From Patescibacteria group bacterium (GTDB taxonomy: Bacteria; Patescibacteriota; Patescibacteriia; UBA9570; JAHJKD01): 64,000 bases of DNA. The translations under genes were made by a program, and so were the position numbers. Under the pieces are notes generated by a model. That model was not told the origin of the DNA and made no database searches. It saw only the letters and a list, made by a program, of their open reading frames with translations. Location of the stretch: assembly GCA_018822435.1 (NCBI GenBank), contig JAHJKD010000049.1, positions 6,511 through 70,510 of the forward strand, read 5' to 3'. Position 1 is the stretch's first letter. Every line of letters starts with the position of its first letter. Shown piece by piece: positions 1,545 to 63,067 of this stretch.

Positions 1545-1910
1545 TTATTTTAGAAAATTCTTGATATTTTCAGCAACTATTTTTGGGGGGTTTTCATTTT
1601 TAAACCAGTAATCGCGCAGGCCAATCATCATTCCTTTTTGCTTGTATTCGTCAATGGCCATGCTAGATAAGGCAAATATAGGCACGTCTTTAGTGCGGTC
1701 GTCTTCCAGAACACGCTGGCCCATTTCAAAGCCGTTCATTTCCGGCATCATTATATCAGTGAGGATAATATCAGGTTTTATTTCGAGAACCTTTTCAACC
1801 ACGTCTTTAGGCGGGTATTCAAAATGGATGACTTCAAAACCGGCTTTTTCTAAAGCGGTTTTATACATAGCATAAAATCTAGGAGTGTCTTCAAAATATA
1901 GGATTTTCAT
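1545..1910 (-). CDS. Stand-alone response-regulator receiver domain (CheY-like)
   Basis: D-D-T...K receiver signature (DIILTDIMMPEMNG), 121 aa, no output domain. Confidence 0.8.
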   Translation of the reverse strand: MKILYFEDTPRFYAMYKTALEKAGFEVIHFEYPPKDVVEKVLEIKPDIILTDIMMPEMNGFEMGQRVLEDDRTKDVPIFALSSMAIDEYKQKGMMIGLRDYWFKNENPPKIVAENIKNFLK

Positions 1911-2094
1911 ATATGAATTCTACCAATTTTGCCCAAAGAAAGCCACCAACCAATTATAACCCCTCCATTGGCTGGTGGCTGGTGAAAGCCTCTGGCCAAG
2001 AATGGTAATTGGCAGTGGCTTTCCTTGTTTGTTGTTGACCCGTTTACGCTGTTTGTTTCAGAAGTCTCCGTCGTCATAGGCAGCTGTCCTCTTA

Positions 2095-2265
2095 TCCACG
2101 TGGATCGTGGCCGGCTCCGGAGGCTTGGCCGGCTCGCCCGTGTCCGCCTGGACAGCGGACTGATCCTCCATCTTCTGGGGGGCGGCCTGCAAAGAGACGC
2201 GCCCGGGCGACGCAAGGCACCCCTGCGGCGAGTGCCAAAGAAATCAGGCAAATCAGTAATTTCAT
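2095..2265 (-). CDS. Small secreted peptide (57 aa, MKLLICLISLALAAGVPC...), GC-rich; not in supplied ORF track
   Basis: ATG at 2263-2265 (minus) with AAGGA upstream; clean signal peptide; only protein-like frame in 1.91-2.27 kb; downstream hairpin 1945-1985. Confidence 0.25.
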
Positions 2266-2488
2266 GAGTTTTTTCCTTTCTTTTCTTTCCTCTGAGCCAA
2301 CAACACTTATAATTTCATATATTTAATGTTCTGTGCCAATTTTTAGGTTCCTCCATGCGAGGCGCGTTCCTTTGCTGACCGGCGGGTACAAGTAATATGA
2401 ATATTTACATATAAAAACTTGACATTAAATATGATTATTACTAAGCTATGTCGGAAAACTTAAAGCCCTTTAAGGAGGAAAACGGGAA

Positions 2489-2869
2489 ATGAAGAGAAGG
2501 TATTACGTATTGTTTGAGAATGAAGATGCGCGGGAACAAAAGGAATTGTTCATCAGCCGGCAGGAAGCGGCGGCAATCAAGTCCCTGGCCGTCCTGATGG
2601 ACAACCCGGCTTTCAACGGGGATGCGGAGGGCGTATTCGCCTACCTGTGCGGGTTTGTCTGGTTCCGCAAGTTCCATGGCCTGAAACCAGGCGAGGCCGT
2701 CCGGTTCCGCACGGGCCAGTCTGCCTACCACCCCCGGGAGGAGAACCAGGACGACGACATCATCCATGTCTGGACGCAGGAGTACTTCCTGGCCGGAAAC
2801 CGATGGATGCTGAGCCTGCTCATCAAGATCGAAGACGACGAGGACGTCGACGTAGTGGTGCAGGAGTAG
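2489..2869 (+). CDS. Hypothetical protein, GC-rich island gene A (126 aa, acidic C-terminus)
   Basis: AAGGAGG SD 8 nt upstream; about 60% GC CDS in AT-rich flanks; terminator follows. Confidence 0.6.
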   Translation: MKRRYYVLFENEDAREQKELFISRQEAAAIKSLAVLMDNPAFNGDAEGVFAYLCGFVWFRKFHGLKPGEAVRFRTGQSAYHPREENQDDDIIHVWTQEYFLAGNRWMLSLLIKIEDDEDVDVVVQE

Positions 2870-2888
2870 GCCGGCATGGCCGGTAAAA

Positions 2889-2930
2889 GGCCCTGGATAG
2901 CAAGAAGCTGTCCAGGGCCAAATTTTTTTC
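2889..2930 (+). terminator. Rho-independent terminator (GGCCCTGGA...TCCAGGGCC + T7)
   Basis: 9-bp GC stem, T-run. Confidence 0.7.
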
Positions 2931-2964
2931 TAAAAAATACAATAAATTGTCAATTGAAAAAGCC

Positions 2965-2996
2965 TTGACAAATTTATACTTACAGTGTAACTTGGC
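2965..2996 (+). promoter_or_regulatory. Sigma70-like promoter (TTGACA -35) for island gene B
   Basis: TTGACA at 2965-2970, TG-n-TAACTT-like -10 about 17 nt downstream; AT-rich. Confidence 0.3.
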
Positions 2997-3042
2997 GAAG
3001 ATTCTAAGGCCAATTTTTTAACCAACAAGGAGGGCACGAAAC

Positions 3043-3435
3043 ATGGCTGATTGGATTCTGAAGCACGTGATGGGCGAGAGCGAAGAGCAGAAACGATGGG
3101 AGATGGAGATGGCCGAGGACCTGGGCCTGGCTCTCCTGCACTTCGACTACACGGGCATGACCAAGGACAACGGCTCCCTGGTGTGGCGTTTCCTGCAGGA
3201 CTTCCCCCAGTTCTGCCAGGCCAATGGCGTCACCAGGATGGGCCGCCCCAAAGTCAAGTTCATCGACTGCCACAAGGTACCCAGGGATCAGCTTGAAGAT
3301 TCCCAGGGCGTGGTCTGGTACCTGGAAATCACGGTGAACGACAACCCGCAGCGGATGGAGATTACCCGCGTCGATCCGGACGCGCGGCAGGTACACCTGC
3401 CCGTGCATCACGATCTGGCCTGGTCGCCCACATAG
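3043..3435 (+). CDS. Hypothetical protein, GC-rich island gene B (130 aa)
   Basis: AAGGAGGG SD 7 nt upstream; about 58% GC; own terminator. Confidence 0.6.
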   Translation: MADWILKHVMGESEEQKRWEMEMAEDLGLALLHFDYTGMTKDNGSLVWRFLQDFPQFCQANGVTRMGRPKVKFIDCHKVPRDQLEDSQGVVWYLEITVNDNPQRMEITRVDPDARQVHLPVHHDLAWSPT

Positions 3436-3446
3436 GAGGAGCAAAA

Positions 3447-3488
3447 CCCCCCGACTTAGCAATGCTAAGCCGGGGGTGCTCTTTTTTA
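3447..3488 (+). terminator. Rho-independent terminator (CCCCCG..CGGGGG + T-run)
   Basis: Hairpin 3447-3476 then TTTTTT. Confidence 0.7.
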
Positions 3489-3499
3489 ATAGGTTTTTT

Positions 3500-4288
3500 T
3501 TACTTTGATTCTAAATTTTTAATCTCTTCTTTAAGTTCAATAATCTTCTTTTCCCGGCCCACCATGAGTTTGTTCATCTTATCGGATTGTTCTTTTTTGG
3601 CTTCCAACTCTTGCATTACAATTTCGCGCTGCTTCGCCTCTTTCTTTAACTCTATATTGGCTTTCTCTAAATCAGAAGTTGCATGACGAATATCTCCGGC
3701 CTGGCTTTCAATAAGCCTGGACCGGGCTTCTTGGCCCCGCGCATAAATAAGAACCACCAAAGATATAATGGCCATGCTTATTACAGTAAGCCAGGTTTCA
3801 TATGGTATATACGGCATATCAATGACTCGTATTGACTGAAGTATGGCTGCGGTAATCATAAAAGCGAATAATGCAAGGGTCCAATAAACGCCTTTTCTAT
3901 AACCCATTAATAAGAAAATTGCCGGGGGATATAAATAAATCCACAAGTTTCCCGTAGCAAAAAATCCGCCGGTCCCAAAATTATGAATAGACATTGCAGT
4001 AATCACAAAAGCTCCAATTTGAAAAGAAATCTCCATTTTTTTTGTAACCCGTAATATTATTAAGGCAGTCAGTAAAAGTATTATAAATGTAATTTCTAAG
4101 AAAGCTGGGTAATAATCTTTTATTTGCAGGTTTACAATGACATAATATGTGAAAATAATAATACCGAGAAAAGCGACGATATGAAAAAACCGAATACGGG
4201 AATAATTAATATCCGTACGTTTGAGCTCTATGCCAGATTGTAATATATTATCAATCCATTTCATGTTAATCATTATAACAAAAAACAA
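3500..4288 (-). CDS. Membrane sensor protein (5-6 TM) with C-terminal coiled coil ending in the G-R-E motif (KLMVGREKKIIELKEEI); no kinase domain
   Basis: TM helices plus Lys/Glu coiled coil; C-terminal motif shared with ORFs 20822-22120 and 22185-23591. Confidence 0.55.
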   Translation of the reverse strand: MFFVIMINMKWIDNILQSGIELKRTDINYSRIRFFHIVAFLGIIIFTYYVIVNLQIKDYYPAFLEITFIILLLTALIILRVTKKMEISFQIGAFVITAMSIHNFGTGGFFATGNLWIYLYPPAIFLLMGYRKGVYWTLALFAFMITAAILQSIRVIDMPYIPYETWLTVISMAIISLVVLIYARGQEARSRLIESQAGDIRHATSDLEKANIELKKEAKQREIVMQELEAKKEQSDKMNKLMVGREKKIIELKEEIKNLESK

Positions 4289-4329
4289 GGCACTTGTATA
4301 AGCGCCCTGTTTTTATTTACACTGTTTAA

Positions 4330-4791
4330 TTATTTCATAAAACCTTTGCCCATGCCTTTGCCCATGCCGGGTCCGTGGCCCATGCCCATGCCGTCAGGCA
4401 GTCCCAGTTCCTCGCGGATTTCCTGGGCGCCATCGAAATCGCCTTCTTGCATAAGTTTATGCATTTCAGCGAAGCGGTCAAAATTGCCTTCATTCACATA
4501 ATCCGTGATTTGAGGGCGGGAATCGATGATCTCTTTCCATTTGGCGTAATCGCCATCAGTCAGAGCGTTTTCCATCTCATCCTTTTGCGCCTGCATTTCT
4601 TCGCGATGCTGGCCCATTTCGGCCTGTACTTCCTGCTTTTGCTCGTCAGTAAGCTTGTCCCATACTGACGAGATGCCAGGGCCGGCCGCTTTGGTGGCGG
4701 CTGTGGCCGTCATCAGGCCGACAACGCCGACCGCGGCGACCGCGGCGACTAAGGAAAATGCGGTCAGGCTTTTTTTAACCTTTTGCTTCAT
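4330..4791 (-). CDS. Periplasmic CpxP/Spy-like (LTxxQ) protein with Gly/Met-rich tail
   Basis: Signal peptide; LTDEQKQ repeat motif; MGMGHGPGMGKGMGKG tail. Confidence 0.45.
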   Translation of the reverse strand: MKQKVKKSLTAFSLVAAVAAVGVVGLMTATAATKAAGPGISSVWDKLTDEQKQEVQAEMGQHREEMQAQKDEMENALTDGDYAKWKEIIDSRPQITDYVNEGNFDRFAEMHKLMQEGDFDGAQEIREELGLPDGMGMGHGPGMGKGMGKGFMK

Positions 4792-4832
4792 AAATAAATT
4801 ATTTAATTATTAAGATGACTTGGCCAGTCACT

Positions 4833-5612
4833 TTAATAATACGAGGGTTGATATTCTTTTATTTCAATATTTAATTTTTTACCTCTTGGATTAGGTTGTT
4901 CAGGATGGAAAGGTTTGTTCTTTCCTTTATCCCAAGGCCTGATGCCAAAGGCTTCTATCTCGTCTTCATCAATCCTTTCGCCAATAACCCTTATTTTTCC
5001 GCCTTGTAATAATTCTAATTCAGGTGGAACCATTGTTTCTCTAGAAAACATTACTTCCCACTCATCTCCGTTCCAATCAATTAAAATCAGGCTATCAGAC
5101 GATACGCTACCGATAATACCGGCAATTGTGCCGGCGTCAGGCTGCATCCAGATCATATGCGGGACAGGGACAACACGATGGTAGCCAGGCAAATGCTGCT
5201 CTAATTTATTCTCAATATATTGTGTCAGGCCAGTATAATAAAATAAAGCCGCCAATAATATTGTGCCAATCAAGATGACTATAACAATAAAATGCCATTT
5301 AATTTTATAGCCTTGCTTAGTTTTTCTGAATTCAACAAATGCCAGGATGGCCAGAGCCAGAGATAATATCAGCCAGAAATAAGGCAAAGCCCTCAGCATA
5401 TTGAGTACCCGTCCCGGCATAGCCATAAATAAACGAAAATCCTGCTGAACGGTAATTTCCCAACTTAGAGCAATAGCTAAAGCAATTATTGGAATACCAA
5501 TTATAAGAAGAGACCATAATAAAACTTCGCTAAAAGTATACCGCCATTTTGGCCTAGGCTTAATGTCGTTTTTCTTGATTTGTTCGTTGATCTTGTCTGA
5601 TATATTGGTCAT
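4833..5612 (-). CDS. Membrane protein translationally coupled to the ECF sigma factor (putative anti-sigma/regulator)
   Basis: 4-nt overlap with sigma gene; 4 TM helices + extracytoplasmic domain. Confidence 0.4.
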   Translation of the reverse strand: MTNISDKINEQIKKNDIKPRPKWRYTFSEVLLWSLLIIGIPIIALAIALSWEITVQQDFRLFMAMPGRVLNMLRALPYFWLILSLALAILAFVEFRKTKQGYKIKWHFIVIVILIGTILLAALFYYTGLTQYIENKLEQHLPGYHRVVPVPHMIWMQPDAGTIAGIIGSVSSDSLILIDWNGDEWEVMFSRETMVPPELELLQGGKIRVIGERIDEDEIEAFGIRPWDKGKNKPFHPEQPNPRGKKLNIEIKEYQPSYY

Positions 5613-6178
5613 AAGTTTGTTCCCTCCATTTCCTTTTTCAATTGTTTCTTGGCCCGGTTGATTAATGTTCCGACTGTATTTACTGGTTTTTTTATAATGT
5701 CTGAGATTTCTTCATATGAGTATTCATTGAGATATTTAAGCTGCAGGACTTCCCTATATTTGAAATCCAGCTTATTTATTGCCTGCTGGACTTCCTCTTT
5801 AAGAGCTTTTTCATCCAGTTTTTCTTTTATGTCAAAATCATCTTTCAAAAGATAAGCAATTTCATCATCCTCCAGATCTGGCATGCCCATTTCTTTCTTG
5901 TGCTTGCGCCAATAAGAGATAGTTTCATTGTGAGCAATAGAAAATAACCAGGAGGAAAATTTCCGCTTCTGGTCAAAGGCATTGAGGTTTTGGTAGGCTT
6001 TGAGGAATATTTCCTGGGCAATGTCTTCCGCTTCTTCGCGGCGGACACCGGAAATCCGAACTATATAGTTGATTATTTTGCTTTCGTATTTTTTTACCAA
6101 ATCAGTGTATATAGCCGGGTTTTCCAGAGTCATCTGAACCAAAACAATATCCTCATTTGAGCCTTCTTTTTCAGGCAT
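5609..6178 (-). CDS. ECF-type RNA polymerase sigma-70 factor
   Basis: Region 2 (IAQEIFLKAY, SWLFSIAHN) and region 4 HTH (YSYEEISDIIKKPVNTVGTLINRAKKQL). Confidence 0.8.
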   Translation of the reverse strand: MPEKEGSNEDIVLVQMTLENPAIYTDLVKKYESKIINYIVRISGVRREEAEDIAQEIFLKAYQNLNAFDQKRKFSSWLFSIAHNETISYWRKHKKEMGMPDLEDDEIAYLLKDDFDIKEKLDEKALKEEVQQAINKLDFKYREVLQLKYLNEYSYEEISDIIKKPVNTVGTLINRAKKQLKKEMEGTNL

Positions 6179-6236
6179 ACTCTAATTAATACGCATAATT
6201 TATGTATAATATTTCAAATGGTAGCTAGCGTCAATA

Positions 6237-6252
6237 GAACCGCAGATTACGC
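6237..6252. repeat. 5' arm of an imperfect inverted repeat (GAACCGCAGATTACGC) enclosing the GxxExxY ORF
   Basis: 14/16 reverse-complement match to 6684-6699 and 6723-6738. Confidence 0.6.
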
Positions 6253-6266
6253 TGATTTGGCAGATT

Positions 6267-6656
6267 TCACAGATTTTTTCTTTTAGAATTTATTAATCTT
6301 TTAAATTGGAGGCTGCGAGTGCCGAAATTTAGTAATAAGCCAATTTCCATATTAAAGGCCTCAAGATAATTGATTGCCTGGGCATAATGGACTTTTTCCA
6401 ATTCTGAAACTGCCTTTAATTCGACCAAAACTTTCCCTTCCACCATCATATCAACTCTTCTACGGCCCATCATGATGCCATCGTAAAAAATAGGCATCTC
6501 TTTTTCACGAATATGGCTAATATTATTTTTCTGGAACTCTCGAGCCAAACATCTTTGATAAATTGATTCTTGGTATCCACTACCAAGACTACTATGCACA
6601 TTCATAGCACAACCAATAATTTTACCAGTTAAATCTTTATATTTATATTTTTCCAT
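6267..6656 (-). CDS. GxxExxY family protein (PD-(D/E)XK nuclease superfamily)
   Basis: GYQESIY motif, D...E.K core (VDMMVEGKVLVELK), 129 aa. Confidence 0.7.
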   Translation of the reverse strand: MEKYKYKDLTGKIIGCAMNVHSSLGSGYQESIYQRCLAREFQKNNISHIREKEMPIFYDGIMMGRRRVDMMVEGKVLVELKAVSELEKVHYAQAINYLEAFNMEIGLLLNFGTRSLQFKRLINSKRKNL

Positions 6657-6677
6657 TTTTTATTATTTAAAAAAATA

Positions 6678-6739: not shown

Positions 6740-6791
6740 AACCACAAAAAAACAGAGGCGCCGAGCCTCTATTTCCTGATTTGATATTAAA

Positions 6792-8426: not shown

Positions 8427-9458
8427 ATGCTAAGCCAAAAAATTGTTGAAAAAATCCGGGTGGACGGACTGACTATTTCCACATCTCTTTTAGTCCACGC
8501 GGCTAAAAAAAACCGTCTGATAGTAAAACTGTTGCCAGAAAAAGCCCTGTCCATTTCTAATGATTCAGGACGAGAGTTTTTTTTCAAAGAAACCATGTTT
8601 CCGTGCAATGATTCGGTCGCTGCCCGTCTCTCTGACAATAAATATTTTGTCCGCCAGTTATTGCAAGCCGAAAACGTGGCTGTTCCTAAAACAAAAATTC
8701 TGGATAACGCAGCGGCCTGGGAAAAAACTTTAAAAAGCCGGCACCTCAGTTTTCCCCTTGTCGTCAAGCCCCTTAATGCGGCCCATGGCCATGGCATCAC
8801 AGTAAAAATTATGCGTAAATCTGTATTGCGAGAAGCAGTCAAAAAAGCTTTCAAATTAACCCGAGAAGTCAACCGTAAAAAAAGAATACTAGTGGAAGAG
8901 TATTTTGAAGGCCATGACCTGAGATTTTTAACAGTCGGCAATAAAGTAATATCTGTGGTGGAAAGGAAACCAGCTTATGTAGTCGGCAACGGAGAAGATA
9001 ATATCAGAAAACTAATTAAAAATTATAATCAGGTGTGGCGTTCGCGCATATCACAATATGACATGCCTCTCTGCCCAATATTAATTGACAGTGAAGTTAC
9101 TCGTCGCCTTTCTCTTCAGAACCTGAAAATCGATTCCTTGCTGAAAAAAGGTCAGGTTGCTCATCTTAGATTTAATGCCAATGTCAGCACGGGCGGGCGC
9201 ACTTTTGATGTTACAGACGAGGTCTCACCGGCTTTGAAAAAACTGGCCCTGAAGTGCATGGATATAACAAAATTACAGGTGGCCGGCGTGGACATGCTTT
9301 GCAAGGATATAAAATCTTCAGATACGACTTACAATAATCTCTGCATCCTGGAGGTGAATGACGAACCAGGCCTGGACATCCATTATTTTCCGTTCCAGGG
9401 AAAATCAAGGGACATCGGCACGGCCATACTAAAACATATATTTAAGGTGAATAGCTAA
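8427..9458 (+). CDS. ATP-grasp ligase (RimK/cyanophycin synthetase N-terminal-like)
   Basis: FPLVVKPLNAAHGHGITV ATP-grasp core; E..N Mg site near C-terminus. Confidence 0.5.
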   Translation: MLSQKIVEKIRVDGLTISTSLLVHAAKKNRLIVKLLPEKALSISNDSGREFFFKETMFPCNDSVAARLSDNKYFVRQLLQAENVAVPKTKILDNAAAWEKTLKSRHLSFPLVVKPLNAAHGHGITVKIMRKSVLREAVKKAFKLTREVNRKKRILVEEYFEGHDLRFLTVGNKVISVVERKPAYVVGNGEDNIRKLIKNYNQVWRSRISQYDMPLCPILIDSEVTRRLSLQNLKIDSLLKKGQVAHLRFNANVSTGGRTFDVTDEVSPALKKLALKCMDITKLQVAGVDMLCKDIKSSDTTYNNLCILEVNDEPGLDIHYFPFQGKSRDIGTAILKHIFKVNS

Positions 9459-14253: not shown

Positions 14254-15189
14254 TTATAATTTCTTCAGGGTGATCCTGGTTCCGTTAAAATCCAGACAGG
14301 CGCGCTTGTCCCATTTCCAAAAATTCAGAGGGGCCGGGACTTTGCCAGCGCCACCGGGCACGTCGATGACATAGAGCGGGCAGGCCAGGCCGGACAAGCG
14401 GCTCCGAAGCTTGGTCATGATCTCGGTTTCTTTCTTGAAATCAACGATAAAATGTTCAGCACCCGAGACGTAATCACAGCGAAAAATATAATAGGGCTTG
14501 ATGCCGATCTCGATCAGGCCGGAAAAAAGGTCGTAAAGAGTCTTGACGTTGTCATTGACTCCCTTTAGGAAGACGGATTGCGATAAAATCATGGTGACAT
14601 GAGGCTGGAGGCGGCGGATGGCCCGCACTGTGGCCGGATTGATCTCGGCCGGGTGCTCGAAGTGGACCATGAGATAGAGCGGCTGGCGTTTGACTGCATC
14701 CAGGGCGGCAAGCACTTTTTTGTCCGCCTGGCGCGGATCAGACACGGGCAAGCGCGTGCCCACGCGCAGGACCTTGATCTGGGGCAGGCGGGAAAAGCGG
14801 GTCAGGGCCTTTTTTAAAAGAATGGGAACGGTCAGAGGATCTCCCCCGGAAATTATCAGCTCTTTTATTTCCGGATGTTTCTTGAGGTAGGCCACGATAT
14901 TGTCCAGGTCCTTGTCTGTAATGACGCCTTTTTTGAGATCAGAAACCTTGCGCCGGCGCGTGCAAAAACGGCAATAGGCGGCGCAGTTCATGGTCAGGAG
15001 CACTAGGGCGCGGTTGCCGTATTTATGCACCAGGCCGCGGGTGGCGGTATGTTCCTCTTCCATAAGAGGATCAGCGGTGGTCATCTTTTCGTCCCAGCCC
15101 TCTTTTTTTGAAGGCACAAACTCGCGATGCACGGCCGGGCAGGTCTTGATGATGGTTTCTAAATGGGGTGATAAGCGCTTGCTGAGCAT
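14254..15189 (-). CDS. KamA-family radical SAM aminomutase (lysine 2,3-aminomutase / EpmB-like), GC-rich
   Basis: CAAYCRFCTRR (CxxxCxxC), ISGGDPL, VHFEHPAE, FLKGVNDN, GIKPYYIFRCDYVSGAEHF, IDVPGGAGKVP motifs. Confidence 0.8.
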   Translation of the reverse strand: MLSKRLSPHLETIIKTCPAVHREFVPSKKEGWDEKMTTADPLMEEEHTATRGLVHKYGNRALVLLTMNCAAYCRFCTRRRKVSDLKKGVITDKDLDNIVAYLKKHPEIKELIISGGDPLTVPILLKKALTRFSRLPQIKVLRVGTRLPVSDPRQADKKVLAALDAVKRQPLYLMVHFEHPAEINPATVRAIRRLQPHVTMILSQSVFLKGVNDNVKTLYDLFSGLIEIGIKPYYIFRCDYVSGAEHFIVDFKKETEIMTKLRSRLSGLACPLYVIDVPGGAGKVPAPLNFWKWDKRACLDFNGTRITLKKL

Positions 15190-15202
15190 TTTTTATTTAA
15201 AA

Positions 15203-16237
15203 TTATTTTTTTATGCAATTATATTTGATACCATAGCGGTGGCAGGCTGATTTCAGGATAGCGGCGATCATGCCGTCATAGGCCAGACCGGCCGCGCGGG
15301 CAGCGCGGGGAAAGCGCGAATTTTCACGCGGGTCTGGAATTATCCCGGGCGGGCAATTGATCTCAATCACATAGGGTGTGCTCTTCTTGAGCCGCAGGTC
15401 GATCCGCGCCCAGTCGGCCATTTCCAACGCCTGGAAAGTGTGGCGGCAGACCTGGCTGATCTTCTTGGCCAGGGCCGGGCTGATCTTGGCCGGGCAGACC
15501 AGGGGGTCGGCCTCGTGCTGGGGATCGTCATAGACCCATTTGGCCTCGTAGTGGTCGAATTTGGGCATGTGGGCAGGCAGAGCATCGAAAGTCACTTCTA
15601 TAATGGGCAGGACGCGAGGCGGCGTGCCCAGCAGGGCGACCGTGAACTCGCGACCCTCTATATATTCCTCGATAATGACGCTCTGGCCGTGCTGGCGGAT
15701 GATGTCATCCGCTACCCTGACCAGGTCGGCATGGTTGCCAACCAGATTGGCGCTGCCGATGCCCTTGCTCGAGCCTTCGCCGAGGGGCTTGACGATGGCC
15801 GGAAAAAAATCAACATTATCGGGCCGTATTTCCGCAGCGGCCCTAGCCGTGAACCAGCGCGGCGTCGGGATCTTGTGGGCCAGGAGGACTTCCTTGGCCT
15901 TAGCCTTGTGTAGGCCGAGGGCGTAGCCCAGCGGACTGGGGCCGGTATAGGGGATCTCGAGCATTTCCAGCATGGCCGGGATCTGGGCCTCGCGATCCAG
16001 GCCGTGCATGCCTTCGGCTATATTGAATACCAGGTCGAGCTGCTGCCTCAGGTCATGAAGCTTCTTATAGGCAGAATGATCGGCTTCGATGCAAAAAACA
16101 GTATGGCCGAGCCCTTGCAAGGCGTCGTAAATGCCGGCAATGGTGGCTGGTTCGTCAAATTCCGCTTCCATAATATATTGAGGGTCGTCCATGTCCGGTT
16201 TGACGTGGCGGACGTTGTAGGTGAAGCCGATATTCAT
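15203..16237 (-). CDS. D-alanine--D-alanine ligase-family ATP-grasp enzyme, GC-rich (ATG at 16237; track uses upstream TTG at 16258)
   Basis: Ddl-like N-domain, AIVKPLGEGSSKGI, IEEYIEGREFTV, RIDLRL...VIEINCPPG motifs. Confidence 0.75.
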   Translation of the reverse strand: MNIGFTYNVRHVKPDMDDPQYIMEAEFDEPATIAGIYDALQGLGHTVFCIEADHSAYKKLHDLRQQLDLVFNIAEGMHGLDREAQIPAMLEMLEIPYTGPSPLGYALGLHKAKAKEVLLAHKIPTPRWFTARAAAEIRPDNVDFFPAIVKPLGEGSSKGIGSANLVGNHADLVRVADDIIRQHGQSVIIEEYIEGREFTVALLGTPPRVLPIIEVTFDALPAHMPKFDHYEAKWVYDDPQHEADPLVCPAKISPALAKKISQVCRHTFQALEMADWARIDLRLKKSTPYVIEINCPPGIIPDPRENSRFPRAARAAGLAYDGMIAAILKSACHRYGIKYNCIKK

Positions 16238-16399
16238 AAAATTAAAAAAACCCAGCAAAGGGGCTCACTTTTAATGGGTCTTAAATTGAGGTTTTTAGCT
16301 TTAGCGGCTGTTGTCAGGCAGTCCGGAGGATGATCATCGTCATCCTTTAATATTTCTGTTTCCATTTTTTTATTCAAATATATTCTACTCCGGTTTTTT

Positions 16400-16850
16400 C
16401 CGGTGTCAATATCTGCCGGAAACAGGCTGTGTATAAATTAGAATAATACCGGTCGCTGCCTGATGGGATAGAACCACCAGACAGCGACCAGGATCCTGAT
16501 GCGGGGGAGAGAGGCCATTGGTCTGAAAGAAATCCATGGCTAGTTTCCCCTGCTCTGTACAGCCTCCGAGGCCATCCACCGCTTTCGCTGGGTTGGGCTC
16601 ATCCGGTTGTACTGGGCTCGTTGGTTACAGGAGAGCCTCAGATAGAACCTACGGAAAGGGTCAATCTGTGGACAGTTGGGATCATCTGTCCCGGAAGGTA
16701 CGGTTCGTTCATTTGGCTTGCTGACCTTGGTCATGAAACACCTCCTCATGGCGGCCGGTTGAACGGGCCTTTTTATCTTACCCCCATGGCAAAACAAAAA
16801 GCTTCTTACCCCGATAATGCAGAATAAGAAGCTTTTTGTCTTCTTGCCTT
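16400..16850 (+). ncRNA. Candidate structured noncoding RNA in a GC-rich island (family not identified)
   Basis: No credible ORF; extended -10 TGtTATAAA at 16430-16438; nested GC-rich hairpins such as GGUCGCUG..CAGCGACC; ends at a 13-bp hairpin. Confidence 0.25.
16805..16850. terminator. Bidirectional terminator-like perfect 13-bp hairpin (AAAAAGCTTCTTA ...16-nt loop... TAAGAAGCTTTTT)
   Basis: Seen directly; U-runs on both strands. Confidence 0.6.
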
Positions 16851-17032
16851 TCGATAAACTCAAGGCCATATCTTCCTCCAAGGGGGGCAGGACTTACCAC
16901 CCGGCTTATCCGGGTTGGCGAGCAGTCAACGGGCCTGATCCCTCGTGCTTCTCTTGATATTTTTGAATTGCAATGAACTATAAATATTCTAACAAATATT
17001 TCTTACCTTCGCAACGATTTTCTTGGGGATAA

Positions 17033-17278: not shown

Positions 17279-17296
17279 ATTTTTTAAATTAATTTG

Positions 17297-17369
17297 TCGG
17301 ACTGGCGGGACTCGAACCCACGACCTCACGCACCCGAGGCGTGCGCGCTACCAACTGCGCTACAGTCCG
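17297..17369 (-). tRNA. tRNA-Pro (anticodon CGG)
   Basis: Manual fold: acceptor CGGACUG/CAGUCCG, anticodon stem CACGC/GCGUG, loop CUCGGGU, T-loop UUCGAGU; no encoded CCA. Confidence 0.85.
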
Positions 17370-36368: not shown

Positions 36369-36914
36369 TTATTTATCTATTGTATCATCTTTTGGCCCGC
36401 CGGTCAGGTCGTCGAGAAAATTGCCGAGGAGTTCGCCGTCGGTGAAGTCGCGGGCCATGTCCGCGGCCGCGTCCATGGCGCCGCCCACGGCCTTGCCCTG
36501 GGCTATGCCCATGGTCCTTTCCATGGTCTCTTCCACGGCCCTTTCCACCGGCATTTTCGGGGATTTCATGCCCAGGATGCCGGCAAATATCATCTGCAGG
36601 CCGGTGAAGTCAAAATCCGTGTCTTGGCTGGCCATGTTTACGGCCTGGCCATTGGCGAAATTCATGAAATCGTCCCAGTTCTTTTCTTTACCAAAACCAC
36701 CCTGTTCTTCAAAGCTGGCGCCGGTCTTATCATAATGCTTCTTTTTTTCCGGACTGCCCAGGACCTGATAAGCTTCGTTTATTTCCTTGAACTTAGCTTC
36801 GTCTCCCCCTTTGTCAGGATGATAGACTTTGGCCAATTTAATAAAAGCCTGTTTAATTTCTTCGGGGCTTGATTCGCGGGTTACGTTGAGGGTTTGGTAG
36901 TAGTCTTGGGGCAT
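36369..36914 (-). CDS. Chimeric J-domain protein: DnaJ-like N-terminal 90 aa (AT-rich) fused to a unique Ala/Met/Asp-rich GC-rich C-terminal tail
   Basis: About 60% identity to DnaJ residues 1-90 incl. HPD and NWDDFMN; GC content jumps after about codon 70. Confidence 0.7.
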
Positions 36915-40709: not shown

Positions 40710-40736
40710 TTAGCACTCTAGTGTCAAGAGTGCTAA
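40710..40736 (-). promoter_or_regulatory. CIRCE operator (TTAGCACTC-N9-GAGTGCTAA)
   Basis: Perfect 9-N9-9 inverted repeat matching the CIRCE consensus. Confidence 0.9.
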
Positions 40737-40994
40737 ATTAGGAACACGAAGATGCAAAATATCGAACATCTCGAAGGTAAAGACTTTTATATACAAATAT
40801 CAGTTTTAATACTATTGAGTGCGTCCAGATGATGGCATGAAGGTTTTCTTCGTGGTTTTCGCCATTTCGTGTTTTCGTGATCCAAATACCAACATCCCCT
40901 CTTAGAAGGCCTATATAAGTATAGAAATTCAGTTGAAGGGAGGAAAAGGAGCATGTGATAATCATTCTTTTACTGATTCCCTTCTGATGCGGAG

Positions 40995-41333
40995 TTATAC
41001 GTAGATAACGCGCATGCGTTTCCACTCGCTGGGCAATTCCGTTCGATTTCTGACCCAGGTAATCAGGTACCCGCCTCTTTTGTGGGAATAGAACGCTATT
41101 CCCTGGGGAGGCTGGTCCTGGGCCGCCGCTTGCAGGGCAGCCGGGACACAAGGATCAATTCTTTCGGGCAGCTTAATGAGAGCGGCCCGTTCGGGAATCA
41201 TCAAATTTTTAAATTCCCAGATAGCTTGTTCATTGAGCTCGAATCCGGCGGCGTTGCCACGGAGAATAGGCTCAATGATCATAATGCGAGGCATCCCTTT
41301 CGGGAACCAGCAACGGAAATACTTTTCGCTCAT
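40995..41333 (-). CDS. Hypothetical protein in GC-rich islet (112 aa)
   Basis: AAAGGAG SD 9 nt upstream of ATG; about 58% GC. Confidence 0.45.
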   Translation of the reverse strand: MSEKYFRCWFPKGMPRIMIIEPILRGNAAGFELNEQAIWEFKNLMIPERAALIKLPERIDPCVPAALQAAAQDQPPQGIAFYSHKRGGYLITWVRNRTELPSEWKRMRVIYV

Positions 41334-41468
41334 TTCTCAAGCTCCTTTTCCTCGAAACTAAACGCTTTTCCCCTAATAAGCGCTAAAAATAATGTACAAA
41401 AAATGGGGTGTTTATATTACACCTTTTATGTGAAATAATCAATATTAAATTTTAAGACTAAAAATTTG

Positions 41469-41540
41469 CACCGCCTAGGGGAATCGAACCCCTGTTGCAT
41501 GGATGAGAACCATGTGTCCTAGCCACTAGACGAAGGCGGC
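41469..41540 (-). tRNA. tRNA-Glu (anticodon CUC)
   Basis: Manual fold: acceptor GCCGCCU/AGGCGGU, loop UUCUCAU, T-loop UUCGAUU; resembles canonical tRNA-Glu. Confidence 0.8.
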
Positions 41541-57105: not shown

Positions 57106-57116
57106 ATTTTTTAAAT

Positions 57117-59696: not shown

Positions 59697-59724
59697 ATTG
59701 TTTTAATTATACCACAAAATTGCC

Positions 59725-60066
59725 TTATACGCCAGCCGAATTAAGGGATAACTTGACGACTACGCCGATAAAGACCATGAAGAGGAAGATGAGGATTATT
59801 GTTACTAAGCATGGGATGCCAAAAGCTTGGCCCGGACCCATTTGTTCGCGGAATGATTTTTTCTCTTCTGGTTCATTCTCTGTCCTCGTCGGCCCTACTT
59901 CGCTCTCCTTCGCACCTTCGGTGCTTCGGAGGAGCTTCGAAGGGGCCTTACTCGGGCTATTGGCTTTTTCCAGAGACTGTTCAACTGTTTTATTTATTTC
60001 TTCTTTGGCAGGTTTAGACAACTTTTTTGGAGCTGGCTTTTTGGTTGTTGTTTTTTTTGCGGGCAT
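59725..60066 (-). CDS. Hypothetical Lys/Pro-rich small protein with C-terminal TM
   Basis: ORF only; preceded by palindromic element copy 2. Confidence 0.3.
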   Translation of the reverse strand: MPAKKTTTKKPAPKKLSKPAKEEINKTVEQSLEKANSPSKAPSKLLRSTEGAKESEVGPTRTENEPEEKKSFREQMGPGQAFGIPCLVTIILIFLFMVFIGVVVKLSLNSAGV

Positions 60067-60076
60067 ATTGTATTAC

Positions 60077-60094
60077 CCCGAATAAATTCGGGGC
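60077..60094. repeat. Palindromic element CCCCGAATAAATTCGGGG (copy 2)
   Basis: Identical to 25527-25544. Confidence 0.7.
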
Positions 60095-60102
60095 TTAAAT
60101 AA

Positions 60103-62304
60103 TTATTCAAGAAGCGCGGGTAAAGTTAGTGAGAAAGTAGAGCCTTTGCCTTTTCCGGGCGATTCTACGGCCACTTCGCCGTTCATGGATTCAACCACTT
60201 TCTTGACGATGTAAAGACCGAGGCCGGTGCCATTAGGATTTATATGCAGGGCGTCCTTGCCGCGGACAAAACGTTTAAAGACTTCTTCCTTTTGCTGTTC
60301 ATCCAAACCGATGCCCGTGTCTTTCACCCATATAGTTATTTTACCAGGTTCTGTGTTAAAGCCAACTGTGACCGTGCCTTTGGGGGTGTAATGAATGCCA
60401 TTGTCGACCATATTACCAATCAGCTCGTGCAGTTTGATCTTATCAGCCATAATTGGAGCAAGTTTCTTCTTTGGCTTATCCAGCTTTAATTTCAACTTCT
60501 TTTCATCAGCCATCCATTGCCTCTCTTTGATTACGTCTTCTACTTCAGGCAAGATATCATACGGCTCGATATTATACTGGATCTTGCCGCCTTCTAATTC
60601 TGTGGCAGATAGTAAGTCATGGACGATGTGCTCAAGATTGTTAGAGGCCATATAGGCTTGGGCAATAAAATTCTCTCTGTCTTTCTTTGACATTGAGCTT
60701 CCTTCTTCATCAAGCATGGAGAGCATTCCCCTAACAACTGAAGTCGGGGTCCTTAACTGATGCGAGGCAACAGTCAAAAACTCTGACTTCATTTCCAGGA
60801 GTTCATTTAAGTGAACATTTTTTTCCTGGATCTCTTTGGTGGCTTCGTCAACTTTCTTTTCCAGATTTTTATTTAGGTCTTGGACTTCTTCGTAGAGTTG
60901 GGCGTTTTCCATGGCAACGGATGCTTGGTGCGTCATGGTTTCTAGTAAATCTAAATCTTCAACAGTGAAAGCGTCCTTTGAGGCTTTATTTCCAAGAATG
61001 ATAATCCCTATTAATTCCCCTTTTGCTAATAATGGCAAGCATATACTTATTCGTAAGTCCTTTAATTGTTTTTCCATCTTTTCCAGATTCGAAAGAACTG
61101 TAGTCTTATCATTATTTAAATCCTTTTCACGATGTAATTCGTTTACAACTAATATCCTTTTATATTTTTTTAAATACTTGGCAATGAAGTTTCCTTTTTT
61201 TAATTTATCAATTTCTGATTTATTAAAATTTTTATTTACCTGAACTCTATAAGTAAATCTATTTTTCCCTTCTTCCTTTGTCAGTAAAACACAAGCCGTC
61301 TCAATACCCATGGCGATACTAATGGAATCGATAATCAAAGAGAAAATTTTATCTATATCAATAATCGTAGTCAACTCTGTTGTTAAATTCTTCAAAGTTC
61401 GTTGATAGTTATAAAGACTTGTAAAAAAATATTTATTTGCGGTTTTAAAAAATAAATTCTTCAAAGGATCATAAGCAATAAGCGCCCCTATCATTAAAAT
61501 TATTCCTAATACCATCGCTGATATAGGAAAATTAAAATAACTATTCACATACATTAATAAACCTGCAACCACGACTATAACTATGATAGCTCCGAAATAT
61601 ACTAAGCCCTTTCTTATAACAATTCGGATGTCCATTAATCTATATCTAAATACTGTATAGGCCACACAACCTATAAAGAATAAAGACGAAGCGGGTCCGA
61701 ATATACTTGCTTGAGCAAAATCAAAAATAACTGAAAATAAATTTGTGATTATTGCGATAGTAAGGAATAAAACTATTCCTAAAAATAAATAGACGATCTG
61801 GAATCTGTAGATGCCTTCATATTCCTTATAACTTAAGTAAAAATTTCGAAGAGAAAAAAATAAATATATAATCAAATAAACTAATAAAACTTGATATAAA
61901 ATACCTGCCTCTGGATTTGATCCCCAGCTCTCAATTGTAACGCTTTCGATATTATATTTTGTAAAAACAAACGGTAATATAATTACCGGTGGGATTGCAA
62001 AAAGAACAGCTTTTAATTTACTAAACGATTCTTTTACTTTCGGAAATAAATATGAAAAAATTACTAAAAAATAAATAGCAAATATTGGACCAACGAGAGC
62101 CAGCCTTGTCCACCACAAAACGCTAAATTCATTTTTTCCACTATCTGCAAAAATTAAAGTAAAGACCCAAAATGCAAGTGATAAAATTACAAACGAAAAT
62201 ACTTTTGTGTCCGTTTTTCCCTTCTTTCTAATAAATAAAAAGAATAATACAAGAAGTATTAATAGAATTGGAATGTAGGTTAGATATACAAACATACTTG
62301 ACAA
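60103..62304 (-). CDS. Sensor histidine kinase with multi-TM N-terminal sensor, GAF domain, HisKA, HATPase_c
   Basis: H-box ASHQLRTPTSV; N, G1, G2 boxes; 7-8 TM helices. Confidence 0.8.
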   Translation of the reverse strand: MSSMFVYLTYIPILLILLVLFFLFIRKKGKTDTKVFSFVILSLAFWVFTLIFADSGKNEFSVLWWTRLALVGPIFAIYFLVIFSYLFPKVKESFSKLKAVLFAIPPVIILPFVFTKYNIESVTIESWGSNPEAGILYQVLLVYLIIYLFFSLRNFYLSYKEYEGIYRFQIVYLFLGIVLFLTIAIITNLFSVIFDFAQASIFGPASSLFFIGCVAYTVFRYRLMDIRIVIRKGLVYFGAIIVIVVVAGLLMYVNSYFNFPISAMVLGIILMIGALIAYDPLKNLFFKTANKYFFTSLYNYQRTLKNLTTELTTIIDIDKIFSLIIDSISIAMGIETACVLLTKEEGKNRFTYRVQVNKNFNKSEIDKLKKGNFIAKYLKKYKRILVVNELHREKDLNNDKTTVLSNLEKMEKQLKDLRISICLPLLAKGELIGIIILGNKASKDAFTVEDLDLLETMTHQASVAMENAQLYEEVQDLNKNLEKKVDEATKEIQEKNVHLNELLEMKSEFLTVASHQLRTPTSVVRGMLSMLDEEGSSMSKKDRENFIAQAYMASNNLEHIVHDLLSATELEGGKIQYNIEPYDILPEVEDVIKERQWMADEKKLKLKLDKPKKKLAPIMADKIKLHELIGNMVDNGIHYTPKGTVTVGFNTEPGKITIWVKDTGIGLDEQQKEEVFKRFVRGKDALHINPNGTGLGLYIVKKVVESMNGEVAVESPGKGKGSTFSLTLPALLE

Positions 62305-62400
62305 TTTCTTATAAATGTATTATAAAGGACGCGCTCAAAAGGCACAAGGACCTAAAATATAAAACATCAGGTAAAATAGCCTGAGAATGGGAGTTTGATC

Positions 62401-63000
62401 ATGTTCCGTAAGATATTGATTATGATAAAGTCCTTAGCAGCTTTGTTGGGCTTTAGTCGGAAAGGAAATGCCGATTACAGCCTTACCCTCGAAGACATTA
62501 TGCCGATGGCTTTGCGGGACGATCTGTTCGCAGATTACAATGTGGCCATGGGCAAGGAGCAGACCAAGTACCCGCACGATCAGATGAATTACGATCGTGA
62601 CGAGTTTGAGCAGGCCTGTGATGATCCTGAGATCATCAAGGCGGTCTTCAGGGTCAATGATGACGCCGCCGGATTCGCATTCCTGACCCGGCCCGTAGCG
62701 ACTAGCAAGGCGCCGTGGGTCTCGCCAACGTTCAACTGGAATGCGCAATCCGGTCTGTACTACATCACCATCCTGATGATGCGCAAGAACTACCGGGGTG
62801 CCGGCCATGTCATCGGATTCATGGAGCATCTCTACAAGGAACTGACCACGGCCTATCCGGGCCTTGTGGTCGGATTCGATGTTCCTACGAATGGGAAGGA
62901 ATGGCTGTACAAACTGATCTTCCGTCGAATTGGTAAACGGTTCGGAGTGAGGGTCACGCCTATCGGGAGCCAGAAGTATTTCCGGATGGAACAACTTTAA
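62401..63000 (+). CDS. GNAT-like acetyltransferase-fold protein in GC-rich islet (start ATG 62401; track uses TTG 62395)
   Basis: GGGAG SD 7 nt upstream; RKNYRGAGHVIGFMEHLYKEL resembles GNAT motif A; about 58% GC after an AT-rich first 25 codons. Confidence 0.45.
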   Translation: MFRKILIMIKSLAALLGFSRKGNADYSLTLEDIMPMALRDDLFADYNVAMGKEQTKYPHDQMNYDRDEFEQACDDPEIIKAVFRVNDDAAGFAFLTRPVATSKAPWVSPTFNWNAQSGLYYITILMMRKNYRGAGHVIGFMEHLYKELTTAYPGLVVGFDVPTNGKEWLYKLIFRRIGKRFGVRVTPIGSQKYFRMEQL

Positions 63001-63015
63001 ATGGAGGAAACAAAA

Positions 63016-63056
63016 AGCCCGGCCTGCGACTAATTTAAGTCGTTGGCCGGGCAAAA
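63016..63056 (+). terminator. Rho-independent terminator (GCCCGGCC...GGCCGGGC)
   Basis: 8-bp GC stem after GNAT-like ORF. Confidence 0.6.
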
Positions 63057-63067
63057 CACACGAATTA

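What the first reader, a model, noticed from the sequence alone, without database searches (positions are those of the whole stretch)
1907..63060. Five GC-rich, SD-bearing gene islets in an AT-rich, SD-less genome
The backbone looks about 35-40% GC by eye. Native genes checked (dnaK, gap, dnaJ, dnaX, cysS) have no Shine-Dalgarno sequence. Five segments jump to about 58-62% GC: 1907-3490, 14254-17030, 36369-36700, 40740-41345 and 62425-63060. Every ORF in them has a strong SD (AAGGAGG, GGGAG, AAAGGAG). Three of the small genes are stand-alone units with an AT-rich sigma70-like promoter and their own terminator. The GC shift is confined almost exactly to coding sequence, not to the flanks. That is atypical for simple horizontal transfer of a DNA block. 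It suggests repeated capture of foreign coding segments, possibly by a common mechanism. Two genes (GNAT-like, J2) even start AT-rich and switch to GC-rich mid-gene.
Basis: seen in the sequence. Interest (0 to 1): 0.75.

Follow-up and report, generated by a model that had tools for sequence, protein, structure and literature searches.

The report
GC-rich foreign mini-genes in a Patescibacteria genome
An AT-rich genome of an ultra-small bacterium (Patescibacteria), whose own genes lack ribosome-binding sequences, carries several small GC-rich genes of unknown family with strong ribosome-binding sites; they are most likely ordinary horizontally acquired genes, and the five flagged segments do not share one origin or one capture mechanism.

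Summary
The window is 41.7% GC. The five intervals are 52.4, 53.1, 55.7, 46.0 and 52.5% GC, not 58-62%.

The genome is poor in Shine-Dalgarno (SD) sequences. Seven of 70 genes have an SD, and five of those are small GC3-rich genes with no family match. I call them A, B, C, D and E.

- **A, B, C:** each has a TTGACA-type promoter-like site, a strong SD and a hairpin terminator. In anatomy they resemble phage "morons", but they sit among housekeeping genes.
- **A, E, B:** A and E have no homologue among 5.8 billion proteins. B has none in a full HMMER scan.
- **Genes without an SD:** the ATP-grasp gene, the KamA-like radical-SAM gene and the second DnaJ-domain gene (J2) have none.
- **ATP-grasp/KamA pair:** it is a widespread Patescibacteria operon, here in a GC-rich version.
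- **J2:** it is a native syntenic gene whose 3' half is GC-rich.
- **D:** a distant homologue sits at the same place in a related genome.

Identical junctions in separate assemblies argue against chimeras. The link between GC-richness and SD recurs in unrelated Patescibacteria contigs (p = 1e-5).

Best reading: horizontal transfer from two classes of donor. I found no shared capture mechanism.

The parts
2092..2265 (-). A': a small GC-rich ORF (57 aa, signal-peptide-like N-terminus) that continues in another frame (2058-2192), so it is possibly frameshifted or decaying. It has a weak SD, and a hairpin follows at about 1935-1985.
   Evidence: GC 0.64, SD duplex -5.9 kcal/mol
2419..2447 (+). Promoter-like site of unit A: TTGACA, 17 nt, TAAGCT.
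   Evidence: Read. It is one of four CTTGACA sites on the + strand. Its -10 hexamer matches only TAnnnT, so the strict scan does not list it.
2489..2869 (+). Unit A coding sequence: 126 aa, no family. SD AAGGAGG at 2472-2478. GC 0.58; GC1/GC2/GC3 = 0.61/0.31/0.80.
   Evidence: No Pfam, NCBIfam, PHROG or PADLOC hit. Only itself among 5.8 billion proteins. No viral relative.
2889..2919 (+). Intrinsic terminator of unit A: 13-bp stem followed by a T-run.
2965..2993 (+). Promoter-like site of unit B: TTGACA, 17 nt, TAACTT.
3043..3435 (+). Unit B coding sequence: 130 aa, no family. SD AAGGAGGG at 3027-3034. GC 0.60, GC3 0.83.
   Evidence: A full HMMER scan of 1.84 billion representatives found only itself and two repeat-inflated eukaryotic hits. 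The structure model has pLDDT 49.
3448..3476 (.). Hairpin after unit B with T-runs on both sides, so it could terminate transcription in either direction.
16865..16963 (-). SAM-I riboswitch aptamer, the leader of unit C. A promoter-like site (TTGCGA, 17 nt, TAGAAT) lies at 17014-16986.
   Evidence: Rfam RF00162, 47.9 bits against a gathering score of 44.4. Promoter-like site.
16791..16842 (-). Terminator hairpin of the riboswitch expression platform: 18-nt arms that extend to a stem of about 23 bp in the fold, followed by UUUU.
   Evidence: fold z = -4.9
16540..16734 (-). Unit C coding sequence: 64 aa, no family match. SD GAGGAGG. GC 0.55. Its coding signature is weak (GC2 0.51), so it may be a remnant.
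16449..16491 (-). Strong terminator after unit C (18-bp stem).
15203..16237 (-). D-Ala-D-Ala-ligase-like ATP-grasp gene: GC 0.58, GC3 0.72, no SD. It has its own promoter-like site at 16409-16382 (TTGACA, 16 nt, TAGAAT; 11 of 12 matches).
   Evidence: Orthologues at 58-65% identity lie next to KamA in about 28 of the 57 Patescibacteria-like loci.
14254..15189 (-). KamA-family radical-SAM aminomutase-like gene: GC 0.54, GC3 0.67, no SD.
   Evidence: TIGR00238, 211.5 bits against a cut-off of 199.2. CX3CX2C motif read. 57 related loci.
36369..36914 (-). J2: a second DnaJ-domain gene between dnaK and dnaJ. It is native and has no SD. Its 3' part (about 36400-36675) has GC3 of 0.7-1.0.
40995..41333 (-). 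Unit D coding sequence: 112 aa. SD GGAAAAGGAG. GC 0.52, GC3 0.59. It lies between tRNA-Glu (41468-41540) and the CIRCE operator plus hrcA.
   Evidence: A positional homologue sits at L008 388-759 (23% identity, E = 4e-9).
40940..40958 (.). Left arm of a 19-nt inverted repeat (17 of 19 bases). The right arm is at 41335-41353 and contains D's SD. In D's mRNA the 3' end could pair with the SD and hide it.
   Evidence: 0 of 100 shuffles reach this match; duplex -41.7 kcal/mol, z = -5.2
62298..62326 (+). Promoter-like site of unit E: TTGACA, 17 nt, TATAAA. It lies 3 nt from the start of the divergent histidine-kinase gene.
   Evidence: The strict scan does not list it.
62401..63000 (+). Unit E coding sequence: 199 aa, no family. 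SD GGGAG at 62389-62393. GC 0.52, GC3 0.67. It is the only + strand gene in a long run of - strand genes.
   Evidence: The structure model has pLDDT 50 and no fold match.
63017..63052 (.). Hairpin after unit E. Its T-run is on the - strand, so it probably terminates the neighbouring AdoMet-decarboxylase gene and E shares it.
   Evidence: Read. Not listed because the loop exceeds 8 nt.
17296..17369 (-). tRNA-Pro just upstream of segment 2. tRNA genes also lie near the ATP-grasp/KamA pair in other loci.

Best explanation
The flagged segments have three different origins.

**(1) Small single-gene units: A, B, C, D, E, the decaying A', and a sixth unit just outside the window.** These are horizontally acquired genes from GC-rich donors that use SD sequences. 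Those donors are probably unsampled bacteria or their phages and plasmids. The units inserted into intergenic DNA by illegitimate recombination. They survive as self-contained expression units: a sigma-70-type promoter drives transcription, the inherited SD recruits the ribosome to a GC-rich 5' end that lacks the native A/U-rich leader, and a hairpin terminator insulates the neighbouring genes. In anatomy they match phage "morons", but they lie in ordinary chromosomal DNA.

**(2) The ATP-grasp plus KamA-like operon.** This is a typical Patescibacteria operon. Here it is present as a GC-richer copy, most likely exchanged from a higher-GC member of the same phylum. That would explain why it has a native-style leader and no SD.

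**(3) J2.** This is a vertically inherited gene. Its 3' half was probably replaced by, or converted to, a GC-richer allele.

**Shown:** the composition, the SD status, the promoter- and terminator-like signals, the lack of homologues, the synteny and the reproducibility of the assembly.
**Inferred:** the direction and source of transfer, the insertion mechanism and whether the units are expressed.
For: - **GC3:** the units lie 2.6-6.0 SD above native genes.
- **Dinucleotide signature:** after correcting for base composition, A+B score 208 against a null of 88 +/- 28 (0 of 200 samples reach it). E scores 181 (p about 0.01). The ATP-grasp/KamA pair looks native at 67 against 55 +/- 17.
- **SD:** present in 5 of 10 GC3-rich genes against 2 of 60 others.
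- **Homologues:** A and E have none among 5.8 billion proteins. B has none in a full HMMER scan. None of the five matches Pfam, NCBIfam, PHROGs or PADLOC.
- **Orientation:** A, B and E are on the + strand within runs of - strand genes.
- **Expression signals:** promoter-like sites and strong terminators flank A, B and C.
- **ATP-grasp/KamA:** the KamA-like gene was found in 57 mostly AT-rich Patescibacteria-like loci at 38-81% identity (most 60-72%); in nearly all of them its GC3 is about 0.2-0.5, and the ATP-grasp gene lies beside it in about half.
- **Second GC-rich copy:** an independent GC-rich copy of the pair sits in 30% GC flanks in L027. It is not the sister of the window's copy.
- **J2:** its orthologue in L008 is syntenic, 61% identical, and has GC3 of 0.43 throughout.
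- **Assembly:** the junctions are identical in five or more separate assemblies.
- **Generality:** in other Patescibacteria-like loci, GC3-rich genes are small and enriched for SD, 6 of 11 against 13 of 294, p = 1e-5. Eight of the nine such genes scanned have no Pfam family.
- **Literature:** genomic islands and transferred genes make up to 13% of Patescibacteria genomes, and most transfers are within the phylum (PMC12455944). The definition of a moron is in PMC3594210.
Against: - No donor was identified for any SD-led unit.
- No integrase, transposase, direct repeats or shared boundary motif were found.
- I could not obtain an empty site in a relative for A/B or E.
- D argues against simple recent transfer. 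A 23% identical homologue, also GC3-rich (0.60) and SD-led, sits at the same place in a genome whose HrcA is only 75% identical. Over that distance GC3 should have drifted to the native level.
- The AT-rich spacers inside segment 1 (35-40% GC next to 58-60% coding sequence) are a sharper contrast than simple block transfer from a GC-rich genome predicts.
- Unit C has a weak coding signature.
Confidence: 0.6

Rival explanations
1. The GC-rich genes are long-standing residents, not recent imports. Their high GC3 is kept by selection, or by GC-biased gene conversion at loci that recombine often. These would be fast-evolving genes exchanged between strains by natural transformation. The SD would then be a functional requirement of GC-rich 5' ends in a genome that otherwise starts translation on A/U-rich leaders.
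For: - D and its L008 counterpart share position, SD and GC3 (0.59 and 0.60) although the genomes are deeply diverged.
- In L033 and L036 a GC-rich, SD-led lipoprotein gene is hypervariable (36% amino-acid identity). Its UTRs are about 95-100% conserved and its flanks 82-86%.
- J2's GC-rich tract starts in mid-gene, as a conversion tract would.
- The ATP-grasp/KamA pair has a native-like dinucleotide signature. It became GC-rich independently in two lineages.
Against: - A, B and E have no homologue in any relative or anywhere else.
- A+B and E differ from the backbone in dinucleotide signature, not only in GC.
- GC-rich genes without an SD exist (the ATP-grasp gene, KamA, J2, TspO and the 153-aa gene). 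GC-richness therefore does not by itself require an SD.
- Biased conversion strong enough to lift GC3 from 0.40 to 0.83 in a 400-bp gene has, to my knowledge, no precedent in bacteria.
Confidence: 0.2
2. The segments are assembly chimeras. Reads from co-occurring GC-rich organisms were joined into the AT-rich contig.
For: The genome comes from a metagenome, and the composition changes sharply at the borders.
Against: - The junctions are 100% identical in two NCBI MAGs (GCA_018814995.1, GCA_018825215.1).
- They are also identical in Logan contigs built per run from SRR2540949, SRR2544004 and SRR27458548. These contigs span the segments together with their native flanks.
- The AT-rich promoters and leaders are placed correctly for the GC-rich ORFs.
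Confidence: 0.02
3. The small GC-rich ORFs are not protein genes. They are chance open frames inside GC-rich structured RNA or other non-coding elements.
For: - GC-rich DNA has few stop codons, and long antisense ORFs overlap A and B.
- C has a weak codon-position pattern and follows a riboswitch.
- The structure models of B and E have low confidence.
Against: - A and B show the GC3 >> GC1 > GC2 pattern of real genes from GC-rich genomes (0.80/0.61/0.31 for A).
- An SD sits 6-9 nt before an ATG in all five units.
- No Rfam family matches apart from the riboswitch and the tRNAs.
- D has a protein-level homologue.
Confidence: 0.05

Closest known systems
Phage 'morons' (Hendrix/Juhala; reviewed in Cumby, Davidson and Maxwell 2012, PMC3594210)
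   Same: Single small genes that form independent transcription units. [quoted passage not shown] Many have no known family.
   Different: Morons are defined as additions inside phage or prophage genomes. These units sit among chaperone, kinase and tRNA genes. They have no phage genes nearby and no PHROG hit. D is not an 'extra' gene relative to the one relative available.
Horizontally transferred genes and genomic islands of Patescibacteria (PMC12455944)
   Same: Atypical composition, patchy distribution, and tRNA genes next to segments 2 and 4. The ATP-grasp/KamA case fits the transfers within the phylum that dominate in that study.
   Different: The units are 0.3-0.6 kb single genes, far smaller than islands, with no mobility genes. 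The SD-led units have no identifiable donor or homologue. A donor-based method such as the MetaCHIP tool used in that study could therefore not detect them.
Rare SD-led genes in SD-blind Bacteroidia (rpsU autoregulation; PMC9976891, PMC13000453)
   Same: A genome whose genes start on A-rich leaders without an SD, with a handful of exceptions that carry strong SDs.
   Different: In Bacteroidia the SD-led gene is a conserved native gene (bS21) with a demonstrated regulatory loop. Here the SD-led genes are GC-rich genes with no family. Whether this ribosome is SD-blind is unknown. One native gene (4833-5612) has an SD that appears to couple its translation to the gene before it.
SAM-I (S-box) riboswitch, Rfam RF00162
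   Same: Unit C's leader matches the aptamer above the gathering score. An intrinsic-terminator expression platform follows it.
   Different: It controls a 64-aa ORF of no known family, not a methionine or SAM gene. It was not found in 20 other Patescibacteria-like loci. The outer pairs of stem P1 are not standard base pairs.

Membership tests
Phage moron | Independent transcription unit with its own promoter and terminator | tested here: inconclusive
   A, B and C have a TTGACA-type promoter-like site and a strong hairpin followed by a T-run. D has no recognisable promoter or terminator, and E's hairpin faces the other strand. These are consensus matches only; there are no transcript data.
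Phage moron | GC content differs from that of the neighbouring genes | tested here: met
   The coding sequences are 0.52-0.60 GC against 0.41. GC3 is 2.6-6 SD above native genes.
Phage moron | Inserted between genes of a phage or prophage | tested here: not met
   The flanking genes are a response regulator, histidine kinases, hrcA-grpE-dnaK, tRNAs and an AdoMet decarboxylase. No PHROG hit. No relatives in viral contigs.
Phage moron | Absent at the same position in related genomes ('more DNA') | tested here: inconclusive
   A, B and E have no homologue anywhere, but I could not fetch the orthologous sites in relatives. D fails: a homologue occupies the same site in L008.
Genomic island or integrative element | Integrase or transposase, flanking direct repeats, insertion at a tRNA gene | tested here: not met
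   No mobility gene is annotated in the flanks. No flanking direct repeats. Only the tRNA adjacency of segments 2 and 4 is met.
Integron-type or other site-specific gene cassette | A shared recombination site (attC-like repeat) at the border of every cassette | tested here: not met
   No motif is shared between the unit borders. Inverted repeats flank only D and E, and their sequences are unrelated. No integrase is nearby.
SAM-I riboswitch (RF00162) | The covariance-model score reaches Rfam's gathering score, and an expression platform follows the aptamer | tested here: met
   47.9 bits against 44.4, full-length match. A terminator stem of about 23 bp follows, then UUUU.
KamA-family radical-SAM aminomutase | Family model above its cut-off, and a CX3CX2C cluster motif | tested here: met
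   TIGR00238, 211.5 bits against a cut-off of 199.2. The motif reads C-AAY-C-RF-C in the translation. The substrate-specific models (lysine, arginine, glutamate aminomutases, EpmB) all score below their cut-offs.
   No Pfam or NCBIfam hit. No PDB sequence hit. The model has pLDDT 50 and no significant fold match. By eye there is an R-G-A-G motif; that is a lead only.

The most novel reading that the evidence does not exclude
AT-rich, SD-poor Patescibacteria may carry a phylum-wide class of small, GC-rich, SD-led genes with no known family. These would be kept as self-contained cassettes at fixed sites while their coding parts turn over very quickly. Two observations point this way. The D genes share a position but are only 23% identical. 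The L033/L036 lipoprotein gene is hypervariable between near-identical UTRs. Under this reading the cassettes are exchanged through conserved flanks, or form a separately translated (SD-dependent) set of genes, possibly for interaction with the host. They would not be random debris of horizontal transfer.
Probability: 0.15. Interest if true: 0.75.

Novelty: new member of a known kind. Interest (0 to 1): 0.4.

Why it matters
As it stands, this is a clean example of how foreign genes look when they land in a genome with a different composition and a different way of starting translation. Composition, SD use and lack of homologues all single out the same few genes. The SD separates likely imports from outside the phylum from exchanges within it.

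Methods that need a known donor would miss these genes entirely.

If the association seen in unrelated contigs (p = 1e-5) holds genome-wide, it would give a simple marker for recently imported genes in Patescibacteria. It would also raise a testable question: can these ribosomes use an SD at all, and are SD-led genes translated under a separate regime, as in Bacteroidia?

Tried and rejected
- **Viral contigs:** scans with A, B, D and E found no relatives.
- **GenBank phages and plasmids:** tblastn of D found nothing.
- **Family libraries:** PHROGs, PADLOC, Pfam and NCBIfam gave no hit for A-E.
- **Structure:** single-sequence AlphaFold models of E and B had pLDDT 50 and 49 and were unusable. 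The Foldseek search of E found nothing significant.
- **B's only non-self hits:** a BEL/Pao-like retrotransposon polyprotein with a 52-aa segment repeated six times, and a low-complexity eukaryotic protein. I rejected both as inflated by the repeats.
- **One family?** Pairwise BLASTP shows that A, B, C, D and E are unrelated to each other.
- **Shared boundary repeats or target-site duplications:** none.
- **General pairing between 5' UTR and 3' UTR:** only D stands out.
- **Synteny walk for segments 1 and 2 through the RimK-like gene (8427-9458):** the relative JBDRCS01 is rearranged there, and the closer relatives have contigs that are too short.
- **SAM riboswitch as part of the ATP-grasp/KamA operon:** rejected, because it is absent from 20 other loci that carry the KamA-like gene.

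Full report
**Source and reliability of the sequence**

The window comes from a Patescibacteria MAG (contig JAHIYR010000048.1, 124,589 bp). Among the genomes found, HrcA is closest to Patescibacteria and Peregrinibacteria MAGs. Every flagged segment, together with its native flanks, is 100% identical in a second NCBI assembly. The same holds in Logan contigs built separately from three sequencing runs. Chimeric assembly is therefore very unlikely.

**Checking the observation**

- **Overall GC.** The window is 41.7% GC, and 40.6% outside the five intervals. The intervals are 52.4, 53.1, 55.7, 46.0 and 52.5% GC. Interval 4 as drawn is not an outlier (z = 1.3).
- **Per-gene GC3.** Native GC3 is 0.40 +/- 0.07. 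The outliers are A 0.80, B 0.83, ATP-grasp 0.72, KamA-like 0.67, E 0.67, C 0.65, J2 0.63 and D 0.59.
- **SD use.** I computed the duplex energy between each upstream region and the anti-SD. Seven of 70 genes reach -6.5 kcal/mol or stronger. Five of these are the small GC-rich ORFs A-E (Fisher p = 4e-4).
- **Native genes.** dnaK, dnaJ, dnaX and gap are confirmed by Pfam and have A/T-rich leaders without an SD.
- **GC-rich genes without an SD.** The ATP-grasp gene, the KamA-like gene and J2 have the same SD-less leaders. "Every ORF has a strong SD" is therefore wrong.
- **Spacers.** The 5' spacers of A, B, D and E are 28-40% GC, next to coding sequence of 52-60%. The statement that the GC shift follows coding sequence is largely right.

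**Anatomy of the small units**

- **A (2489-2869) and B (3043-3435).** Each has TTGACA, 17 nt, TAnnnT, then AAGGAGG, an ATG, and a strong hairpin followed by a T-run.
- **C (16540-16734).** It follows a promoter-like site and a SAM-I aptamer (47.9 bits against a gathering score of 44.4). The aptamer has a terminator-type expression platform. A strong terminator follows the ORF.
- **E (62401-63000).** It has TTGACA, 17 nt, TATAAA and a GGGAG SD. The hairpin after it carries its T-run on the other strand.
- **D (40995-41333).** It has an SD but no recognisable promoter or terminator. A 19-nt inverted repeat brackets it, and one arm contains the SD (0 of 100 shuffles reach this match; duplex z = -5.2).
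- **Promoter sites and orientation.** Three of the four CTTGACA sites on the + strand are the promoter-like sites of A, B and E. A, B and E are + strand genes inside long runs of - strand genes.
- **Other units.** A decaying ORF, A', lies at 2092-2265. A sixth unit with the same anatomy lies about 2.5 kb before the window (L001 600-971).

**Where the units come from**

- A and E have no homologue among 5.8 billion proteins.
- A full HMMER scan of 1.84 billion representatives with B returned only two repeat-inflated eukaryotic hits. I regard both as spurious.
- None of A-E matches Pfam, NCBIfam, PHROGs or PADLOC. They are unrelated to each other.
- After normalising for base composition, the dinucleotide signature of A+B and of E still differs from the backbone (0 of 200 samples and about 1%). 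The ATP-grasp/KamA pair does not differ.

**Segment 2: the enzyme pair**

A metagenome scan with the KamA-like protein returned 57 loci, most 60-72% identical (range 38-81%). Almost all come from AT-rich contigs, and about half also carry a homologue of the ATP-grasp gene, usually directly upstream. In nearly all loci the pair's GC3 matches that of its flanks (0.2-0.5).

The pair is therefore an ordinary Patescibacteria operon.

One other locus, L027, also carries it as a GC-rich segment (GC3 0.61, flanks 0.23-0.30). L027's copy is not the sister of the window's copy in a neighbour-joining tree. The riboswitch is absent from 20 of these loci, so unit C is a separate insertion.

**Segments 3 and 4: comparison with a syntenic relative**

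L008 (JBDRCS010000011.1) has an HrcA 75% identical to the window's and keeps the order hrcA-grpE-hsp20-dnaK-J2-dnaJ.

- **J2.** It is 61% identical between the two genomes. In L008 its GC3 is 0.43 throughout. In the window its last 90 or so codons reach 0.7-1.0. J2 is native, and its 3' half looks replaced or converted.
- **D.** L008 has a GC-rich (GC3 0.60), SD-led ORF of 123 aa at the same place, just upstream of CIRCE-hrcA. It is 23% identical to D (E = 4e-9). D is therefore either old or repeatedly replaced. Either way its persistent GC-richness is not explained by simple recent transfer.

**How general the pattern is**

I screened the other Patescibacteria-like loci of at least 4 kb and at most 46% GC among those fetched for other reasons (486 kb in all). 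In these, GC3-rich genes are small and enriched for SD: 6 of 11 against 13 of 294 (p = 1e-5). Eight of the nine such genes scanned have no Pfam family.

In the related pair L033/L036, a GC-rich, SD-led gene encodes a Cys-rich protein with a lipoprotein-like signal peptide. It is hypervariable (36% amino-acid identity). Its UTRs are nearly identical and its flanks are 82-86% identical.

**Interpretation**

The simplest account that fits all of the data is horizontal transfer from two classes of donor.

- Genes from GC-rich, SD-using donors outside the phylum keep their SD and have no homologues in Patescibacteria.
- Genes exchanged within Patescibacteria (the ATP-grasp/KamA pair, and probably the 3' half of J2) have native-type leaders.

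The small units resemble phage morons (PMC3594210), but they are not in a prophage. Transferred genes and islands are already known to be common in this phylum (PMC12455944). I found nothing that points to a shared capture mechanism.

The main unresolved points are the persistence of D and the L033/L036 pattern. Both keep open a resident, fast-turnover cassette reading.

Noticed in passing
L001 600-971 (about 2.5-2.9 kb before window base 1): A sixth unit of the same kind: a 123-aa ORF with GC 0.56 and no Pfam family. It has a TTGACC promoter-like site, an AGGAGGGG SD and a hairpin after the stop. It is on the + strand among - strand genes.
   Followed up: partly
L033 2200-3180 and L036 4236-5090: A GC-rich, SD-led gene for a Cys-rich protein with a lipoprotein-like signal peptide is hypervariable (36% amino-acid identity, different lengths). 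Its 5' and 3' UTRs are nearly identical, and an 11-nt inverted repeat (CCAAGGGGAGA / TCTCCCCTTGG) lies in the two UTRs. The UTRs are more conserved than the neighbouring genes (82-86%).
   Followed up: partly
window 40940-40958 and 41335-41353: A 19-nt inverted repeat (17 of 19 bases) brackets gene D. The upstream arm contains D's SD, so the 3' end of the mRNA could hide the SD. The left arm on the + strand reads SD-ATG-TGA, a start-stop mini-ORF.
   Followed up: partly
window 62309-62327 and 63075-63093: A 19-nt AT-rich inverted repeat (17 of 19 bases; matched in 2 of 100 shuffles) brackets unit E. The right arm lies inside the last codons of the neighbouring AdoMet-decarboxylase gene.
   Followed up: partly
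window 14254-16237; L025-L081: A D-Ala-D-Ala-ligase-like ATP-grasp gene is found directly upstream of the KamA-like radical-SAM gene in about half of the Patescibacteria-like loci fetched with KamA. The pair's function is unknown. L027 has a third, 371-aa gene in the same GC-rich block.
   Followed up: partly
window 4833-5612: A native AT-rich gene has a strong SD (GGAGGG, -9.8 kcal/mol) that lies inside the end of the upstream ECF sigma-factor gene, with an ATGA overlap. This looks like translational coupling and suggests the ribosome can use an SD.
   Followed up: no
L008 4881-5474: The relative has an extra, very AT-rich gene (GC 0.25, 197 aa, N-terminal membrane segment) between dnaK and J2. 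The window lacks it. The chaperone locus therefore gains and loses genes in both directions of composition.
   Followed up: no
   Followed up: no
window 40710-40736; L008 1047-1073: A CIRCE operator (TTAGCACTC-N9-GAGTGCTAA) overlaps the hrcA promoter in both genomes. It is the only conserved non-coding block upstream of hrcA.
   Followed up: no
window 16238-16381: A small ORF of about 43 aa (METEILKDDDDHPPDC...) lies between the strong promoter-like site at 16409-16382 and the start of the ATP-grasp gene. It could be a leader peptide.
   Followed up: no
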